UHGV virus genome: UHGV-0281963
DNA: 23,374 nt
Reading direction: 5' to 3' (one strand)
Source of the DNA: a virus
Under the pieces are notes generated by a model. The model ran no database searches. It was not told the origin of the DNA and saw only the letters and a program-made list of their open reading frames with translations. Each line of letters begins with the position of its first letter. Position 1 is the first letter of the stretch. Of this stretch, positions 8,854-21,950 are shown in pieces. The position numbers and the translations under genes were made by a program.

Positions 8854-8975
8854 CTCTGTCGCGGTTTCTATCCGGGGTTCCTAATCCCGACGCCAGATTT
8901 TGCTGGCGTGCGATGAATATAATCCCGGATACGCGACGTTGTCAAACTGATGGCATTGCAGATCCCTACGCAATG

Positions 8976-10426: not shown

Positions 10427-10544
10427 TGGGTGTACCCTTACTTCTCCGTCCTGTTCTTTAACAAAAATCAAGTCAATACAAAATTAGTCAGGCTAATGTT
10501 GTTAGCATAGCCTAATACCGATCGTATTCACAACCACAGTACGT

Positions 10545-10635: not shown

Positions 10636-10791
10636 TTACTCCTCAGGTTCGTAAGCTGTGAAGACAGTGACCTCCGTCTGGCCGGTTCGGATTCGTACCT
10701 CGCAGAGGTCTTTCCTCGTTACCAGTGCCGTCACAATGACGGTAATACAGATGACGATCAGGGCGACTAACATCGCCTTTTGCTGCTTCAT
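10636..10791 (-). CDS. hokD: Hok/Gef-family type I toxin (HokD/RelF-like)
   Basis: MKQQKAMLVALIVICITVIVTALVTRKDLCEVRIRTGQTEVTVFTAYEPEE (51 aa) is near-identical to HokD/RelF as I recall it; RBS AGGAGA before ATG 10791. An in-frame upstream ATG at 10848 would add 19 residues (70 aa total). Confidence 0.8.
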   Translation of the reverse strand: MKQQKAMLVALIVICITVIVTALVTRKDLCEVRIRTGQTEVTVFTAYEPEE

Positions 10792-11036
10792 AGCCTGCTT
10801 CTCCTTGCCTTTCGGCGCGTAAGAGGCTAACCTACATGTGTCTAGCATGAAATTGGCCTCAGATTAATGTTAGGCGTCTTGCAGGACGCGTAATGTTAAC
10901 TGGGGCTTTTCTCTGTCTGCCTTACGGTGGCATGCCCGAGGCAGACAGCCTCAAGCACCCGCAGCAATTCTACTTAACTCTCGCTTTACCGCAAACCGTT
11001 TTTACCCGATATGGGAATTCCCATATCGTAATGAAT

Positions 11037-15550: not shown

Positions 15551-15594
15551 GCTCACCCTGTTAGAGGTGAACGACCAGCAATGTTAAAGAGCGG
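15551..15594 (-). promoter_or_regulatory. nutR-like site (boxA plus candidate boxB) on the minus strand
   Basis: Minus-strand sequence ccGCTCTTTAAcattg (rc of 15579-15594) matches lambda boxA CGCTCTTA; followed by hairpin tcacc-tctaacag-ggtga (rc of 15555-15572). boxB assignment tentative. Confidence 0.5.
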
Positions 15595-17154: not shown

Positions 17155-17202
17155 TCAATTCAACAGCAGGACGCTGGAAGCCAAACGGAACAGATTGGCC
17201 GG

Positions 17203-17240
17203 CTCTTTAACATTGATGGACTCTCAACCTAACCGTTGAG
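17203..17240 (+). promoter_or_regulatory. nutL-like site (boxA GCTCTTTAA plus boxB-like hairpin)
   Basis: gGCTCTTTAAcattg (17202-17215), same 14-mer as in nutR; hairpin ctcaac-ctaacc-gttgag at 17223-17240; upstream of the N-like gene. Confidence 0.55.
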
Positions 17241-17351
17241 ACCAAAATCTAAGTGGTTTTGGGGATGACGCGAATTTCAGTTGCAAGGCCGCGATCGAGA
17301 AGAAAAACACCTCGACGCGTCATACACCAAAGCCACTTAAAGGAGACCATC

Positions 17352-17657
17352 ATGGTAACCATAATCTGGAAAGAATCCAAAGGTACGGCAAAAAGCCGCT
17401 ATAAAGCTCGCAGGGAAGAACTTATTGCAGAGCGGCGCAGTAGTGAAAGACTGACACGGAAGATTGCGCTAAAGATCTCTGGTTGCGTCGGAGCAGACAA
17501 AGCAGTATCACTCGGAAGCCTTCGCTGCAAGAAGGCAGAAGAAGTCGAGAGTAAACAGAACCGTATTTACTACCGCAAACCACGCAGTGAAATGGGTGTG
17601 ACTTGCTCAGGCCGCCAGAAACAACGCGGAAAATCAATTCCGGCTTATTACGATTGA
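17352..17657 (+). CDS. N-like antitermination protein (basic, Arg/Lys-rich N-terminus)
   Basis: First gene after nutL; RBS AAGGAG 6 nt before ATG 17352; MVTIIWKESKGTAKSRYKARREELIAERRSSERLTRK is basic like an arginine-rich motif. Assigned by position and composition; no sequence similarity to lambda N claimed. Confidence 0.5.
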   Translation: MVTIIWKESKGTAKSRYKARREELIAERRSSERLTRKIALKISGCVGADKAVSLGSLRCKKAEEVESKQNRIYYRKPRSEMGVTCSGRQKQRGKSIPAYYD

Positions 17658-18084: not shown

Positions 18085-18444
18085 ATGAATGAAACAGAAC
18101 TGAAGCACATTATCGCCCTGCTTCTGGAAGATGCCAGACAGGTTTATCGACTTAGCCCAAATTCCGCAACGCAGGAACGCATCCGGATAGCGGAAACAGC
18201 ACTGAAACAGGACAATGGAAACGGCATATCCAAATTTAGCGCCGCCAGTGAAAATGAAGTAATAGAAATAAACAGCAATATCAGCGACAGTTGCGTCGCT
18301 TACAGCCACCAAATAATTCGTGTAAGTGCAAGAATAATGGAAGTGATGGCAAGTGAGCTTGAAAAGAACAACATCAAGCCCACTGATTGTTGTTTAAGAA
18401 CCGTAATGAACGTTATTTATTACTCGATGTTCCGAAGTCGCTAA
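18085..18444 (+). CDS. hypothetical protein (119 aa)
   Basis: RBS GGAG 8 nt before ATG 18085 (MNETELKHIIALLLEDARQ...); the ORF-track start at 18064 is a TTG. Confidence 0.5.
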   Translation: MNETELKHIIALLLEDARQVYRLSPNSATQERIRIAETALKQDNGNGISKFSAASENEVIEINSNISDSCVAYSHQIIRVSARIMEVMASELEKNNIKPTDCCLRTVMNVIYYSMFRSR

Positions 18445-18622
18445 CAGCGTCGAGTTTTTCATTAAAAAATGATTCAAATGCATCGTAAAATACGGCAATA
18501 GCACCGCCCTTATCTACCGCGGCAGGAACTGCCTTTTGAGGTATATCTTTCTCCGTAAATTGTGTGTTGTAAGTATCGACAGCCAGCCGCATCAGAAACA
18601 TCACTTTTTCTTCTTGTGTCAT
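18413..18622 (-). CDS. hypothetical protein (69 aa), antisense-oriented within the early-left operon
   Basis: Strong RBS AAGGAGA 9 nt before ATG 18622; its 3' end overlaps the 3' end of the convergent 18085-18444 ORF by 32 bp. Confidence 0.45.
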   Translation of the reverse strand: MTQEEKVMFLMRLAVDTYNTQFTEKDIPQKAVPAAVDKGGAIAVFYDAFESFFNEKLDAVSDFGTSSNK

Positions 18623-18844
18623 AAATTCACTCTCCTTACGGGGTTTGTAGTTGAGGAGTTCTCCACGGGTGAGGTGGAGATCGTGCGCCGGACACGGGTG
18701 AGTTCCTGCACTCTCAGTTTACTGAACAGACATTACCCTGAAAGCCAGGGTACTACACGAAAGCGCGAGGCGAAGACTCTTTCCCATAGAAGGATTGTCG
18801 TTAGATTTCTTCGACCGTGCGCTTCCGGTTGTGAATAACAACAT

Positions 18845-18901
18845 TGCTGTGTGTAACCCTTGGCGGATATCGGTTTGCCGATTGCTGATGTCCGCCCTTT
18901 T
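18845..18901 (+). ncRNA. dicF: DicF-like sRNA candidate with intrinsic terminator
   Basis: ttGGCGGatatcggtttgccgattgctgatgtCCGCCcttttt resembles my recollection of E. coli DicF (…ttGGCGGtatcagttttactccgtgactgctctgCCGCCcttttt) and is followed by aaagtgaattttgtgatg as downstream of dicF. Stem ggcgga (18861-18866) / tccgcc (18890-18895), then cttttt. 5' end not defined. Confidence 0.4.
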
Positions 18902-19078
18902 TAAAGTGAATTTTGTGATGCGGTGAATGCGGCTATGCGCACGCGGAACAGTTAAACCGACAGGATGTCACGGAAAGTCATCGTCCCCTGACCCGGCGTT
19001 AGTTGTTAACTGGTTAACGTCACCTGGAGGCACCAGGCACCGCATCAACAAAGTTCATTTGTGAAAATGGAGATAATT

Positions 19079-19300
19079 ATGATTGCTCATCACTTCGGAA
19101 CTGATGAAATACCACGTCAGTGCGTGACGCCTGGCGATTATGTTCTTCATGAAGGTCGGACATATATCGCTTCAGCAAACAATATTGAAAAGAGAAAACT
19201 CTATATTCGTAACTTCACAACAAAAACATGCATTACCGACTGCATGATTAAAGTTTTCATCGGGCGCGATGGCTTACCCGTAAAAGCAGCGTCGTTGTGA
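19079..19300 (+). CDS. hypothetical protein (73 aa)
   Basis: GGAG then ATG 19079 ([14 protein letters not shown]...); the ORF-track start at 19061 is a GTG; no similarity to DicB recognised. Confidence 0.45.
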
Positions 19301-19877: not shown

Positions 19878-21950
19878 ATGAGCGCTGATAAACAGACTTT
19901 TGCACTACACTGCGAAGCAAAAAACGATAAAGTCAGAAAACGCCTTGGCATCAAAGGCGGTTTTTTCTGGACCGAGGCCAGAAAACTTTCTGTCGCAGTT
20001 TCCCGCTGCATTGCAGCCATGGACGATGCAGGCTACGACGAGGATGATTTCAAAAAACCCGTTCGCGTAAATTTCCCCGTCGTGAATGACCTTCCACCGG
20101 AAGGCGTGTTTGATACTGAATTCTGCAACCGCTATGAAAAAGGCGGTAACGATGGCATCACCATGATGGCTATCCCCTTCGATGACAACATCAACGGTGA
20201 AGATGCCACAACTGCTGGCGATGACAACGATAACCTGGACGGAACTATTCCGGATGATGTGGAGAAAAGCGAATCCCCGGACAGCGACGATGACTGTTCT
20301 GAGTGTGAAATTCCCGTCGCCACTCTGAGCCTTACTCATCGCTTCCTTCACCTCTTCTTATTCAGCAAAGATGAAGATGGAAAATACCGGCATCATGCCA
20401 CACCAGAACAACGCAATAACGTGATCCGTATGGAGATGGACACAGAGGACAGTTACCTTCAGAGCCTGCTTACTGCTGTGCGCGCCGCGCATCATGAACT
20501 GGATAAACTGACGAACTATCACCTTAGTCGCCTGGCTGAATCTGTAGGGAAAGCATTCCCCCACTCTGCAAATCATCGCATCAGCCCGGCTGAATTCGAC
20601 AAGTTCATTTCCACCTGGATGAAAACTGACTACCTTGATCAGGGCCTGCTGACAAAAGAATGGCAGAACGGAAATTATGTTTCAGGCATTACCCGTACGC
20701 CTTCCGGTGCTAACGCTGGCGGCGGAAATATTACCGATCGTGGTGAAGGATTCAAACATGATAAGACATCACTCGCACGAGATGTAGCCACCGGCGTTCT
20801 GGCCCGTTCAATGGATGTGGATATTTATAACCTGCACCCAGCACACGCAAAACGCGTTGAAGAAATCGTGTCAGAGAATAAGCCGCCCTTTTCTGTTTTT
20901 CGCGACAAATTTATCGCCATGCCCGGTGGGCTGGATTATTCCCGCGCCATTGTGGTGGCTTCCGTGAAAGAAGCACCAATCGGCATTGAGGCCATCCCGG
21001 CACGCGTGACTGAATATCTCAACAAAGTGTTGACCGAAACCGATCACGCTAACCCGGATCCGGAAATCGTGGAAATTGCCTGCGGTCGCTCATCAGCACC
21101 GATGCCGCAGCGCGGAACAGCAGAAGGAAAACATGGCGATGAAGAAAAGCAACAAACATCGGACACAATGGCTAATGAACAGGCAGCGCCTGAATCAGTG
21201 GAAGAAATTCCAGTTAAACATAATGAGGACACGCAATCACTGGAAAATGTCTCATCTGTAGAAACGAAATACCAGGAACTGAGGGAGGAACTCAATAAAG
21301 CCAGGGAAAACATCCCCCCAAAAAATCCAGTCGATGCCGACAAATTACTGGCTGCCTCGCGTGGAGAATTCGTTGAAGGCATCAGTAACCCTGCTGATCC
21401 GAAGTGGGTGAAGGGGATCCAGACTCGCGACACTGAGGACCAGAATCAGCCCAAAGTGGAACAAATTGCCCCAGAAGCGGGACAAAACAGCCCGGATACG
21501 CAACAAAACGGGCCAGAAGAGCAACAGCCAGGGCCAGTAATGCAACAGGAAGTGGAAAAGGTTTGCACCACATGCAGTCAGAACGGTGGCGGCCATTGCC
21601 CTGACTGTGGTCCAGTAATGGGAGATGAAACTTACGCTGAAACTTTTGGAGAAAATGACGCCGCTGATGGAGAAGACTCAGCACAAACTGAGGAGAAGAT
21701 CATTCAGGAAAACTCTGTTGATGCCGCTCAGGAGGGCGAAACCGTTGTTCAGAACGAGCCAGGCAGTGATACGTCCGGCGATGACGCCAATTCTGAGCCA
21801 GTAACTCTCGACTGGAAAAGACAGCTCGTGATTGCCGCCGTCTATGGTTTGTGCGCCAACCCCGCATGTATAGCCACAGCGCCAGCAATCCCTGATATCG
21901 CCATCATGATTGCCAACAGGCTTGAAAATTTCGAAGGTGATAAATCATGA
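19878..21950 (+). CDS. large acidic hypothetical protein (690 aa) with Cys motifs ([24 protein letters not shown]) immediately upstream of gam
   Basis: RBS AGAGG before ATG 19878; stop overlaps the gam start (ATGA); long Asp/Glu-rich stretches; no family recognised. Confidence 0.7.

What the first reader, a model, noticed from the sequence alone, without database searches (positions are those of the whole stretch)
18640..18906. Structured non-coding stretch with a DicF-like sRNA and a boxB-like hairpin
About 420 bp without a credible ORF lies inside the early operon. It contains a repeated cacgggtgag motif (18664-18673, 18693-18702), a hairpin ccctg-aaagc-caggg (18735-18751) that resembles lambda boxB (gccctgaaaaagggc), and a terminator-bearing segment resembling DicF from memory. 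If this is DicF-like, the module could inhibit host cell division (ftsZ targeting) on induction.
Basis: partly seen in the sequence, partly recalled or inferred. Interest (0 to 1): 0.5.

Follow-up and report, generated by a model that had tools for sequence, protein, structure and literature searches.

The report
KilS-type prophage sRNA, not DicF
The non-coding stretch upstream of the prophage's cell-division-inhibitor gene kil holds a variant of the known small RNA KilS, which occupies the same slot as DicF in related prophages but carries the curli-regulator (csgD) pairing sequence shared with the host small RNAs RprA and McaS, not DicF's ftsZ-pairing sequence.

Summary
The described features are all present. 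The window is a lambdoid E. coli prophage, and 18623-19078 is the structured leader of kil in the early-left operon. Its flanks are homologous to the K-12 Qin ydfC-dicF-dicB spacer, but the sRNA body differs.

The body (about 18809-18902) is an allele of KilS, the Hfq-associated, northern-verified sRNA upstream of kilR in K-12 Rac. It is not DicF. The Rfam DicF model gives 29.2 bits (K-12 KilS 39.1, true DicF 76.7, cut-off 48). The score comes from the shared terminator hairpin, and there is no ftsZ complementarity beyond shuffled controls.

The single-stranded seed contains AUUGCUGUGUGUA. This matches the 5' end of processed RprA (nt 60 onward) and a motif in McaS, and forms 14 contiguous pairs with the experimentally defined RprA site Ib in the csgD 5' UTR. 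K-12 KilS has a mapped RNase E site exactly at this junction.

The "boxB-like" hairpin is not a nut site. The prophage has its own nutL and nutR: boxA plus hairpins with CUAAC(C/A) loops.

Across about 136 loci, the slot holds several interchangeable seeds between invariant flanks. Identity as KilS is firm. Regulation of csgD is predicted, not shown.

The parts
18809..18902 (+). KilS-type small RNA, full-length equivalent of K-12 KilS (b4833). The 5' end is set by alignment to the K-12 TSS and is uncertain in this allele. The 3' end is the U-tract of the terminator.
   Evidence: Alignment with K-12 Rac kilS and other alleles. 1666 of 5426 E. coli genomes carry a homologue of the 75-nt body, but only 65 at 95% identity or more. 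KilS is described in PMC8175672.
18826..18861 (+). Single-stranded seed region. The core AUUGCUGUGUGUA (18843-18855) is identical to RprA nt 60-72, and 11 nt of it are shared with McaS.
   Evidence: Longest common substring with RprA is 13 nt in the window, 16 nt in K-12 KilS and 20 nt in allele L007, with 0 of 500 shuffles reaching this. It forms 14 contiguous bp with csgD -96..-83 at -23.6 to -24.6 kcal/mol, with 0 of 100 and 1 of 100 shuffles as good. P(unpaired) is 0.43-0.59, similar to RprA.
18842..18843 (+). Predicted RNase E processing junction (AACAAC|AUUGCUG). Cleavage here would yield a roughly 60-nt processed sRNA with the seed at its 5' end.
   Evidence: By homology. K-12 KilS has a mapped RNase E site at 1418471, which is nt 32 (AACGAC|AUUGCUG) (Suppl. 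Table 6 of PMC8175672; position computed). RprA is cut at the same junction to give RprA60-105. Not shown for this allele.
18862..18902 (+). Intrinsic terminator of the sRNA: 13-bp stem (18862-18874 / 18884-18896), 9-nt loop, then C and UUUUU. This is the only part that resembles DicF.
   Evidence: Fold at about -22 kcal/mol, z = -4.4. Rfam DicF partial match at 18848-18897, 29.2 bits. The 3' arm and U-tract are invariant across the DicF, KilS and other seed types.
18642..18818 (+). Conserved upstream leader shared with the Qin ydfC-dicF spacer. Hairpin 1: CUCCAC-GGGUGAG-GUGGAG (first CACGGGTGAG copy). Hairpin 2: GCCGGA...UCCUGC (second copy, weakened here). Also the 18735-18751 hairpin, and a 16-bp helix (about 18748-18763 / 18802-18818) that ends directly 5' of the seed.
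   Evidence: Alignment with K-12 Qin. Consensus fold of 14 diverse leaders shows nearly invariant helices with almost no covariation, so the structure is plausible but unproven. Variants of the 18735 hairpin include one compensatory change, but the stem is broken in the commonest allele.
18905..19060 (+). kil 5' leader, a sub-threshold relative of STnc100. It is closed by a 21-bp long-range helix (18905-18925 with 19038-19060) that ends about 6 nt upstream of the kil Shine-Dalgarno sequence.
   Evidence: Rfam STnc100 31 bits against a gathering score of 47. The helix is kept in all 22 diverse leaders. The downstream partner scores -28 to -35 kcal/mol in the DicF-, KilS- and other-type loci listed, while no upstream partner is conserved.
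19079..19300 (+). kil, which encodes an FtsZ-inhibiting Kil protein. It is the gene served by this leader.
   Evidence: phrog_294 Kil, E 8.2e-36. RefSeq annotation kil/KilR.
17202..17241 (+). nutL of this prophage: boxA GCTCTTTAACA (17202-17212) plus the boxB hairpin TCTCAAC-CTAACC-GTTGAGA (17222-17241). Used as the comparator for the boxB claim.
   Evidence: A second boxA with the hairpin TCACCT-CTAACA-GGGTGA lies on the minus strand at 15592-15553 (nutR). The N-like protein is at 17352-17657.

Best explanation
The stretch 18623-19078 is the structured 5' leader of kil in the pL (early-left) operon of a lambdoid prophage. It contains an allele of the small RNA KilS.

**How it is made.** Transcription from pL, or possibly from a weak internal promoter as in K-12 Rac, runs through a conserved leader into the sRNA. 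It either stops at the intrinsic terminator (18862-18902), which releases the sRNA, or reads through into kil when N modifies the polymerase. By homology with K-12 KilS and with RprA, RNase E is expected to cut at AACAAC|AUUGCUG (18842/18843). That would leave a roughly 60-nt Hfq-type sRNA made of a single-stranded seed, a terminator hairpin and a U-tail.

**What it targets.** The seed is the csgD-pairing motif of RprA (anti-site Ib) and McaS, not DicF's ftsZ-pairing sequence. The most likely trans target is therefore the csgD 5' UTR (site Ib, -96..-83), which would repress the curli/biofilm master regulator.

**Relation to DicF.** KilS and DicF are alternative cassettes in one conserved slot, with shared flanks and a shared terminator base.

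**Basis.**
- Shown here: homology to KilS, non-membership of DicF, absence of ftsZ complementarity, seed identity with RprA and McaS, complementarity to csgD, and the terminator and leader helices.
- Inferred: expression of this allele, the RNase E cut, Hfq binding, and actual regulation of csgD.
For: - **Context.** Early-left operon with cI-like repressor, N-like gene, kil, RecE-family gene, gam/bet/exo and int.
- **Slot.** Flanks are homologous to Qin ydfC-dicF-dicB while the sRNA body is replaced.
- **Identity.** K-12 annotates ncRNA kilS (b4833) at the same position upstream of kilR. The window aligns to it along the whole sRNA.
- **KilS is a real sRNA.** It was RIL-seq predicted, northern-verified, tested in wild type against a hfq deletion, and has a mapped TSS and RNase E site (PMC8175672).
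- **Rfam DicF scores.** True DicF 76.7, K-12 KilS 39.1, window 29.2, cut-off 48.
- **Seed.** A 13-20 nt exact identity with RprA begins at nt 60, the 5' end of processed RprA. An 11-nt identity with McaS was found.
- **csgD pairing.** 14 contiguous bp at -23.6 kcal/mol with 0 of 100 shuffles as good, at the site proven for RprA by compensatory mutations.
- **Allelic variation.** AUUGCUG and ACUGCUG both pair with csgD, by U.G or C-G.
- **Accessibility.** The seed is as accessible as RprA's.
- **Leader.** The strong terminator is followed by a conserved 21-bp leader helix.
Against: - No expression data exist for this allele. The region holding the K-12 KilS promoter is replaced here by Qin-type leader sequence, and no sigma-70-like promoter was predicted.
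- K-12 KilS had only 3 RIL-seq partners. Only yncL is named, and csgD was not among the reported targets. csgD is poorly expressed under those growth conditions, which is my own knowledge.
- For RprA, site Ib alone is dispensable. Two of the three csgD sites had to be hit to lose regulation. KilS has only the anti-site Ib equivalent.
- The window allele has 2 fewer seed pairs than K-12 KilS (GUAACCC in place of GUAGUC).
- Pairing with dgcM, rpoS and yncL is not significant against shuffles.
- I selected KilS-type alleles by a seed motif, so the invariance of that motif is partly circular.
Confidence: 0.6

Rival explanations
1. One reading: a DicF-like antisense sRNA that pairs with the ftsZ ribosome-binding site and blocks cell division on induction.
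For: It occupies the same genomic slot as dicF, with homologous flanks and a shared terminator 3' arm. There is a sub-threshold DicF covariance-model match, 29.2 bits, E 3e-4 in an 801-nt search. The downstream gene is a division inhibitor.
Against: It scores below the Rfam gathering score, whereas genuine DicF scores 76.7. The match covers only the terminator stem. DicF's 5' seed (UUUCUGGUGAC) and its ftsZ-pairing loop and 3' arm (ACUCCGUGACUGCUCUGCC) are absent. Duplexes with ftsZ -80..+40 are no better than shuffles, while DicF finds the RBS at -27.9 kcal/mol.
Confidence: 0.04
2. A purely cis-acting element. The hairpin is a tL-type terminator or attenuator that keeps kil silent unless N, or loss of Rho/NusG function, allows read-through. 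On this view the released RNA is a by-product with no trans targets.
For: The strong terminator sits directly upstream of a toxic gene. kilR in Rac is known to be silenced by NusG-dependent termination and expressed by read-through (PMC10798246). A conserved 21-bp leader helix abuts the kil RBS. K-12 KilS has few RIL-seq partners and modest sRNA scores.
Against: The seed 5' of the terminator is conserved among KilS alleles while hairpin loops and upstream sequence vary. It matches the functional seeds of two validated sRNAs to a degree not seen in shuffles. K-12 KilS was identified through RIL-seq (Hfq-based) RNA-RNA chimeras and was verified by northern blot. The cis role and a trans role are not mutually exclusive, and the best explanation includes the cis role.
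Confidence: 0.3
3. The 18735-18751 hairpin is a boxB (nut) site bound by the prophage's N-like protein, giving a second antitermination site ahead of the sRNA terminator.
For: An N-like gene is present. The hairpin lies upstream of a terminator that must be read through.
Against: The prophage's own nutL and nutR both have boxA GCTCTTTAACA and hairpins with CUAAC(C/A) hexaloops and different stems. The 18735 hairpin has no boxA within reach, since the only boxA matches are at 10453, 15582 and 17202. Its loop is AAAGC, closed by G-C. Its stem is disrupted in the commonest allele (34 + 8 of 71 anchored loci). The same leader occurs in K-12 Qin, where no N-like gene is annotated in the stretch examined.
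Confidence: 0.03
4. The stretch encodes a small protein on either strand (for example ORFs 18536-18838 +, 18719-18844 -, or 18795-18926 +), and the conservation reflects coding sequence.
For: ORFs of 41-100 codons exist mechanically.
Against: None is annotated in any RefSeq genome. Homologous leaders differ by 1-3-nt indels and block replacements that would break any frame. The 100-codon ORF starts with TTG inside the oppositely oriented phrog_2605 gene.
Confidence: 0.02

Closest known systems
KilS (b4833), the sRNA from the kilR 5' UTR of the E. coli K-12 Rac prophage (Bar et al. 2021, PMC8175672)
   Same: Same position directly upstream of kil/kilR. Alignable over the whole sRNA. Same seed core (ACAUUGCUGUGUGUA), same terminator base and U-tract, and the same downstream leader up to the kil start codon.
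   Different: About 76% identity over the 75-nt body. The 3' end of the seed reads GUAACCCUU instead of GUAGUCCU. The hairpin loop differs (UUGCCGAUU against a roughly 19-nt U-rich loop). The upstream region, where K-12 has its TSS, is replaced by the Qin-type leader, so an own promoter is doubtful. This allele is rare: 65 of 5426 genomes at 95% identity or more.
DicF (RF00039), the sRNA of the dicB operon of the Qin prophage
   Same: Occupies the same slot between the same conserved leader and the same downstream leader. The terminator 3' arm and U-tract are identical (CCGCCCUUUUU). Both precede a division-inhibitor gene. Both are likely made by termination plus RNase processing.
   Different: The seeds are unrelated. 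The window lacks the ftsZ-, pykA- and xylR-pairing nucleotides, scores 29.2 bits against a cut-off of 48, and shows no ftsZ complementarity. Qin also has about 100 extra nt between the leader and the sRNA.
RprA (RF00034), and especially its processed form RprA60-105 (RprAproc)
   Same: AUUGCUGUGUGUA is identical to RprA nt 60-72, with flanking similarity (GUGAA.AACAAC). Both have an RNase E junction immediately 5' of AUUGCUG (mapped in K-12 KilS) and the same architecture of seed, terminator and U-tail. Both are complementary to csgD site Ib.
   Different: It is not an RprA family member: 22.4 bits against a cut-off of 70. It is prophage-borne and not at the core rprA locus. It lacks RprA nt 1-45 (csgD site II and the rpoS-activating stretches) and RprA's terminator (anti-site Ia). 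No significant rpoS pairing was found.
McaS (IsrA), a csgD-repressing core sRNA
   Same: Shares UGCUGUGUGUA. Some KilS alleles carry McaS's exact CACUGCUGUGUGUA. McaS binds csgD immediately upstream of stem-loop SL1, which is the same region (PMC4152358).
   Different: Otherwise unrelated in sequence, structure and locus. McaS also binds CsrA and flhDC.
Lambdoid nut sites (boxA + boxB) bound by N
   Same: The 18735 hairpin shares CCCUGAAA with the lambda boxB 5' half and lies in an N-controlled operon.
   Different: No boxA, a different loop and closing pair, and no resemblance to this prophage's own nutL/nutR hairpins.

Membership tests
DicF (RF00039) | Covariance-model score at or above the Rfam gathering score (48 bits) | tested here: not met
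   No hit at the gathering threshold. 29.2 bits at 18848-18897 in the permissive search. Controls: K-12 DicF 76.7 bits, K-12 KilS 39.1 bits.
DicF (RF00039) | The 3' part of the sRNA is complementary to the ftsZ ribosome-binding region (Balasubramanian 2016) | tested here: not met
   The window seed gives -12.9 kcal/mol (58 of 60 shuffles as good) and the hairpin -21.9 (39 of 60). DicF gives -27.9 at ftsZ -29..0. The role of the DicF 3' end is described in PMC5069750.
DicF (RF00039) | The 5' seed UUUCUGGUGAC used for xylR | tested here: not met
   Absent from the window body. Alignments.
DicF (RF00039) | Location in the early operon between the conserved leader and a division-inhibitor gene, ending in the CCGCCCUUUUU terminator | tested here: met
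   Flank homology with Qin. kil lies downstream. This is a positional homologue only.
KilS (b4833) | Lies in the 5' UTR directly upstream of kil/kilR on the same strand | tested here: met
   18809-18902 (+) with kil at 19079-19300 (+). The K-12 arrangement is shown.
KilS (b4833) | Sequence homology to K-12 KilS over the whole sRNA, including the seed core and terminator | tested here: met
   (about 76% over 75 nt). Intermediate alleles (L007, L008, L131) bridge the two.
KilS (b4833) | A discrete Hfq-dependent transcript, shown by northern blot and RIL-seq | not testable with these tools
   Shown only for K-12 (PMC8175672). No expression data exist for this allele.
KilS (b4833) | Own transcription start at the sRNA 5' end | tested here: inconclusive
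   The K-12 TSS is at 1418502. The corresponding upstream sequence is replaced in the window, and no sigma-70-like site was predicted at 18640-18810.
KilS (b4833) | RNase E cleavage just 5' of AUUGCUG | not testable with these tools
   Mapped in K-12 at 1418471, which is nt 32. The sequence context is conserved in the window (AACAAC|AUUGCUG), but cleavage was not measured.
RprA (RF00034) | Covariance-model score at or above 70 bits, and the full RprA architecture | tested here: not met
   22.4 bits, E 6.9.
RprA (RF00034) | rpoS-leader pairing stretches (UCCCCU ... AACGAAUU) | tested here: not met
   Not conserved. The duplex with the rpoS leader is not better than shuffles.
RprA (RF00034) | Anti-site Ib seed (nt 60-74) complementary to csgD -96..-84 | tested here: met
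   13 nt identical to RprA. 14 contiguous bp with csgD and 0 of 100 shuffles as good. The site is defined in PMC3465796. It works like the RprA seed but is not a family member.
Lambdoid nut site (boxA + boxB) | boxA a few nucleotides upstream of the hairpin | tested here: not met
   boxA matches occur only at 10453, 15582-15592 (-) and 17202-17212 (+).
Lambdoid nut site (boxA + boxB) | A hairpin loop matching the cognate boxB of the resident N | tested here: not met
   The nutL and nutR loops are CUAACC and CUAACA. The 18735 loop is AAAGC.
STnc100 (RF02076), for the kil leader 18899-19093 | Covariance-model score at or above 47 bits | tested here: not met
   31 bits. The K-12 dicB and kilR leaders score 34.4 and 28. 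A genuine copy at 4767-4973 (-) scores 164.

The most novel reading that the evidence does not exclude
The dicF/kilS slot of lambdoid prophages may be a modular small-RNA cassette in which seeds are exchanged between invariant flanks. At least 5-6 seed types were seen.

On this reading, the KilS-type seed is a prophage-borne copy of the csgD-targeting seed of processed RprA (also present in McaS), and it includes the RNase E junction that exposes the seed. Transcription of the prophage early operon would then plug into the host's curli/biofilm (CsgD) network without any Rcs signalling, in parallel with Kil-mediated division arrest.

The library searched holds a single paper that mentions KilS. 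Neither that paper nor the two other papers read that mention both RprA and kilR describes a KilS-RprA/McaS relationship or the cassette organisation.
Probability: 0.35. Interest if true: 0.6.

Novelty: new member of a known kind. Interest (0 to 1): 0.4.

Why it matters
The practical point is a correction. Annotating this element as "DicF-like, ftsZ-targeting" from its position or its terminator would be wrong. RefSeq leaves it unannotated and Rfam has no KilS family, so such elements will keep turning up as weak DicF hits.

The biological point is that about 30% of complete E. coli genomes carry a KilS-type sRNA whose function is essentially unstudied. Its seed matches the experimentally validated csgD-pairing seed of RprA and McaS. 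That gives a concrete, cheaply testable hypothesis: prophage early transcription represses the curli/biofilm master regulator.

The locus also shows alternative seeds sitting on a fixed scaffold of leader, terminator and leader. That makes it a tidy natural system for studying how horizontally transferred sRNAs acquire host targets.

Tried and rejected
- **Full-length RNAduplex of sRNAs against targets.** Uninformative, because huge internal loops were allowed and z-scores were near zero even for known pairs. I replaced it with seed-restricted sliding-window duplexes. An earlier version with a rejection-type dinucleotide shuffle timed out.
- **Long-range inverted repeat I1 (18587-18607 with 18903-18923).** I considered it as an RNase III stem enclosing the sRNA. 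I rejected it because no upstream partner is conserved in relatives (-13 to -19 kcal/mol at scattered positions), whereas the downstream partner is conserved.
- **rpoS activation in the manner of RprA.** No significant pairing was found.
- **dgcM/ydaM pairing.** Weak, with 10 of 100 shuffles as good.
- **yncL, the RIL-seq partner of K-12 KilS.** A 12-bp duplex with 3 G.U pairs exists in the yncL 3' region, but it is not significant against shuffles. The supplement gives no chimera coordinates.
- **The idea that other seeds in the slot mimic other core sRNAs.**
  - DicF against DsrA is at chance level.
  - Type F against OmrA shares 9 nt, with 0.6% of shuffles reaching this, but this was one of 35 comparisons and is therefore marginal.
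- **Covariation support for the upstream leader helices.** Essentially none, because the sequences are too similar.
- **Papenfort et al. 2015 (RprA and ricI).** Not held in the library, so the use of the RprAproc seed on ricI rests on my memory only and is not used as evidence.
- **Pfam scan.** It failed on a coordinate error. PHROGs gave what was needed.
Full report
**1. What the window is**

The 701-nt stretch around the finding is 100% identical to several E. coli chromosomes, for example FORC_069. There it lies in a lambdoid prophage next to ynfG.

On the + strand the early-left operon runs as follows:
- a cI-like XRE repressor
- an N-like antiterminator (17352-17657; phrog_271, E 7.6e-35)
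- two small ORFs
- the non-coding stretch in question
- kil (19079-19300; phrog_294, E 8.2e-36)
- a 128-aa ORF
- a RecE-family gene, then gam, bet, exo and int

A conserved gene on the opposite strand (18413-18622, phrog_2605) ends the coding sequence on the left. The stretch free of credible ORFs is therefore 18623-19078.

**2. The observation**

- CACGGGTGAG occurs twice, at 18664 and 18693.
- The hairpin is at 18735-18751.
- A 13-bp hairpin at 18862-18896 is followed by C and UUUUU (about -22 kcal/mol, z = -4.4).

The region is conserved elsewhere, so these features are not chance.

**3. DicF or not**

At Rfam gathering thresholds the window has STnc100, sok, isrK and C4 elsewhere, but no DicF. 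A permissive search gives DicF at 18848-18897 with 29.2 bits (cut-off 48), and the match is confined to the terminator stem. As controls, genuine K-12 DicF scores 76.7 bits.

I aligned the window with the K-12 Qin ydfC-dicF-dicB spacer.
- The roughly 200-nt upstream leader is conserved, including both CACGGGTGAG copies.
- Everything from CCGCCCTTTTTAAAGTG to the next gene's ribosome-binding site is conserved.
- The sRNA body in between is a different, shorter sequence.

DicF pairs with ftsZ through its 3' part (PMC5069750). With seed-restricted duplex searches, DicF finds the ftsZ RBS at -27.9 kcal/mol. The window's seed gives -12.9 kcal/mol with 58 of 60 shuffles as good, and its hairpin gives -21.9 with 39 of 60 as good, so neither beats shuffled sequence. 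The element is therefore a positional homologue of DicF, but not DicF, and ftsZ targeting is unsupported.

**4. What it is: a KilS allele**

A search with the 75-nt body finds homologues in 1666 of 5426 complete E. coli genomes.
- Only 65 are at 95% identity or more.
- About 1570 are at about 76%, including K-12.

The K-12 copy lies upstream of kilR in the Rac prophage and is annotated as ncRNA kilS (b4833, 1418405-1418502). The window aligns with it over the whole sRNA, and intermediate alleles connect the two.

KilS was predicted from RIL-seq data and verified by northern blot, with total RNA compared between wild type and a hfq deletion. yncL is its named partner (Bar et al. 2021, PMC8175672). 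Its Supplementary Table 6 lists a TSS at 1418502 and an RNase E site at 1418471. No other paper in the library mentions KilS. K-12 KilS itself scores only 39.1 bits on the DicF model.

The window allele differs from K-12 KilS in three ways:
- the last seed nucleotides (GUAACCCUU against GUAGUCCU)
- the hairpin loop
- the upstream sequence, which here is the Qin-type leader and not the Rac sequence that holds the K-12 TSS

No promoter-like site was predicted there. In this prophage the sRNA is therefore most likely made from the pL transcript by termination plus processing, as DicF is. That is an inference.

**5. The seed**

The weak RprA hit led me to compare sequences directly. The exact run shared with RprA is 13 nt in the window (AUUGCUGUGUGUA), 16 nt in K-12 KilS and 20 nt in allele L007. 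It always begins at RprA nt 60, and 0 of 500 seed shuffles reach these lengths.

Several lines tie this run to a known function.
- RprA nt 60 is the 5' end of processed RprA, described as RprA60-105 or "the last 47 nt".
- The RNase E site mapped in K-12 KilS is nt 32, that is AACGAC|AUUGCUG, the same junction.
- Mika et al. 2012 showed by compensatory mutations that RprA from nt 60 (anti-site Ib) pairs with csgD -96..-84, and that RprA60-105 can pair there.

The csgD 5' UTR reads ACUACACACAGCAGUG at that position. K-12 KilS forms 16 contiguous pairs with it, and the window's sRNA forms 14. The processed seed scores -23.6 kcal/mol with 0 of 100 shuffles as good, and the longer seed scores -24.6 with 1 of 100.

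McaS, another validated csgD repressor that binds just upstream of SL1, also contains UGCUGUGUGUA. Some KilS alleles read CACUGCUGUGUGUA as McaS does. This changes a U.G pair with csgD into a C-G pair.

The seed is predicted to be about as accessible as in RprA.

The caveats are these.
- RprA needs two of its three csgD sites for full effect, and KilS has only one of them.
- csgD was not reported as a KilS partner in RIL-seq.
- Pairing with rpoS, dgcM and yncL is not significant.
- My selection of KilS-type alleles used part of the seed motif.

**6. The slot is modular**

I used the invariant post-terminator sequence as an anchor and collected 136 loci from viral and genome collections.
- 86 loci have the DicF body.
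- 34-40 loci have the KilS type.
- The rest carry other seeds, for example ACAACAACCCAUGUUGAUUACC or GUGUAGCCAGUGCAACCUCGUGGUGUACCC.
- Hairpin loops also vary, independently of the seed.
- One allele combines the DicF 5' seed with a non-DicF loop.

The downstream leader precedes kil, dicB and at least two other ORFs.

**7. Leader structures**

- **Downstream of the terminator.** 18905-18925 pairs with 19038-19060 in a 21-bp helix kept in all 22 diverse leaders. My anchor fixed the 5' arm, so the changes seen are one-sided. The helix ends just before the kil Shine-Dalgarno sequence. It lies where DicF's RNase III-generated 72-nt 3' end would fall, so RNase III processing here is an inference. 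This leader is a sub-threshold relative of STnc100.
- **Upstream.** Each CACGGGTGAG copy forms the 5' arm and loop of a hairpin, and a 16-bp helix ends directly 5' of the seed. The helices are nearly invariant and show almost no covariation, so the structure is plausible but unproven.

**8. The boxB claim**

The prophage's real nut sites can be read directly.
- nutL has boxA GCTCTTTAACA (17202-17212) and the hairpin UCUCAAC-CUAACC-GUUGAGA (17222-17241).
- nutR, on the minus strand, has the same boxA (15592-15582) and the hairpin UCACCU-CUAACA-GGGUGA (15570-15553).
- The stems differ while the loops match. From memory, this resembles the phage 21 N/boxB type. I did not verify that.

The 18735 hairpin has no boxA and has an AAAGC loop closed by G-C. 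In relatives it reads CCCUGA-AAAG-UCAGGG, with one compensatory variant (CUCUGA...UCAGAG), but it is broken in the commonest allele. It is a leader hairpin of unknown role, not a nut site.

**9. Verdict**

The finding is a real structured leader that holds a small RNA. The sRNA is a rare allele of the known KilS, not DicF. The ftsZ and boxB readings are not supported.

Two things are new in my analysis and not described in the papers I could search. First, the KilS seed is identical to the seed of processed RprA and McaS at their csgD site, including the RNase E junction. Second, the dicF/kilS slot has a cassette-like organisation. Both are computational results. Regulation of csgD needs the reporter experiment described in the next steps.

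Noticed in passing
window 4767-4973 (-), and 18899-19093 (+): A full-scoring STnc100 (RF02076, 164 bits) lies just upstream of a 632-aa ORF (2647-4545, minus strand) in the late region. The kil leader is a sub-threshold relative (31 bits) that shares only GGUGAAU and the ACCNGGAGGCACCNGGCACC hairpin. The K-12 dicB and kilR leaders behave the same way (34.4 and 28 bits).
   Followed up: partly
window 8722-8806 (-), 8832-8909 (-), 10786-10960 (-): C4 antisense RNA, isrK and sok (with hokD) are all called at Rfam gathering scores in the rightward part of the same prophage.
   Followed up: no
window 17202-17241 (+) and 15553-15592 (-): These are the prophage's nutL and nutR. Both have the identical boxA GCTCTTTAACA, followed by hairpins with different stems but CUAAC(C/A) hexaloops. 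The N-like protein (17352-17657) has an arginine-rich N-terminus, KSRYKARREELIAERR. From memory this looks like the phage 21 type; not verified.
   Followed up: partly
loci L013-L145 (anchor CCGCCCTTTTTAAAGTGAATTTTGTGATG); window 18826-18902: The dicF/kilS slot carries at least 5-6 unrelated seed segments and several hairpin-loop types between invariant flanks. One allele joins the DicF 5' seed to a non-DicF loop (GGCGGCATCTGTTTGCCCATGAACTGATGTCCGCC), so it would lack the ftsZ-pairing part. A 'type F' seed shares 9 nt (UUGAUUGGU) with the OmrA seed. This is marginal after 35 comparisons.
   Followed up: partly
loci (e.g. L134, L123, L120): The same STnc100-like leader, with its 21-bp closing helix, precedes at least four different first genes: kil (MIAHHFG...), dicB (METLLPNVN...), an ORF starting MLNVAIENQNGWN..., and one starting MIPVITPRSDW.... 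The leader therefore behaves as a mobile module.
   Followed up: no
window 18413-18622 (-) and 18085-18444 (+): A conserved 69-aa gene on the opposite strand (phrog_2605) sits inside the leftward operon, where sieB sits in Rac. It overlaps the 3' end of the convergent 119-aa gene (phrog_2982) by 32 nt. Its promoter must lie inside the leader at 18640-18800.
   Followed up: no
window 19878-21950 (+) and downstream (L001 12548-14309): The prophage encodes both a 690-aa RecE-family exonuclease and a complete gam-bet-exo (Red-type) set. That is two recombination modules in one early operon.
   Followed up: no
window 18587-18607 and 18903-18923: A 21-nt, 86% complementary inverted repeat would enclose the leader plus the sRNA. 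It competes with the conserved downstream pairing of 18905-18925. It is specific to this allele, since no conserved upstream partner exists in relatives. It could be chance or an allele-specific alternative structure.
   Followed up: yes
L139 and L143 (genome contigs): Two metagenome-assembled genomes, labelled Proteobacteria bacterium and Candidatus Nanosynbacter, carry the E. coli-type dicF/kilS locus on short contigs. This is probably mis-binned enterobacterial prophage DNA.
   Followed up: no
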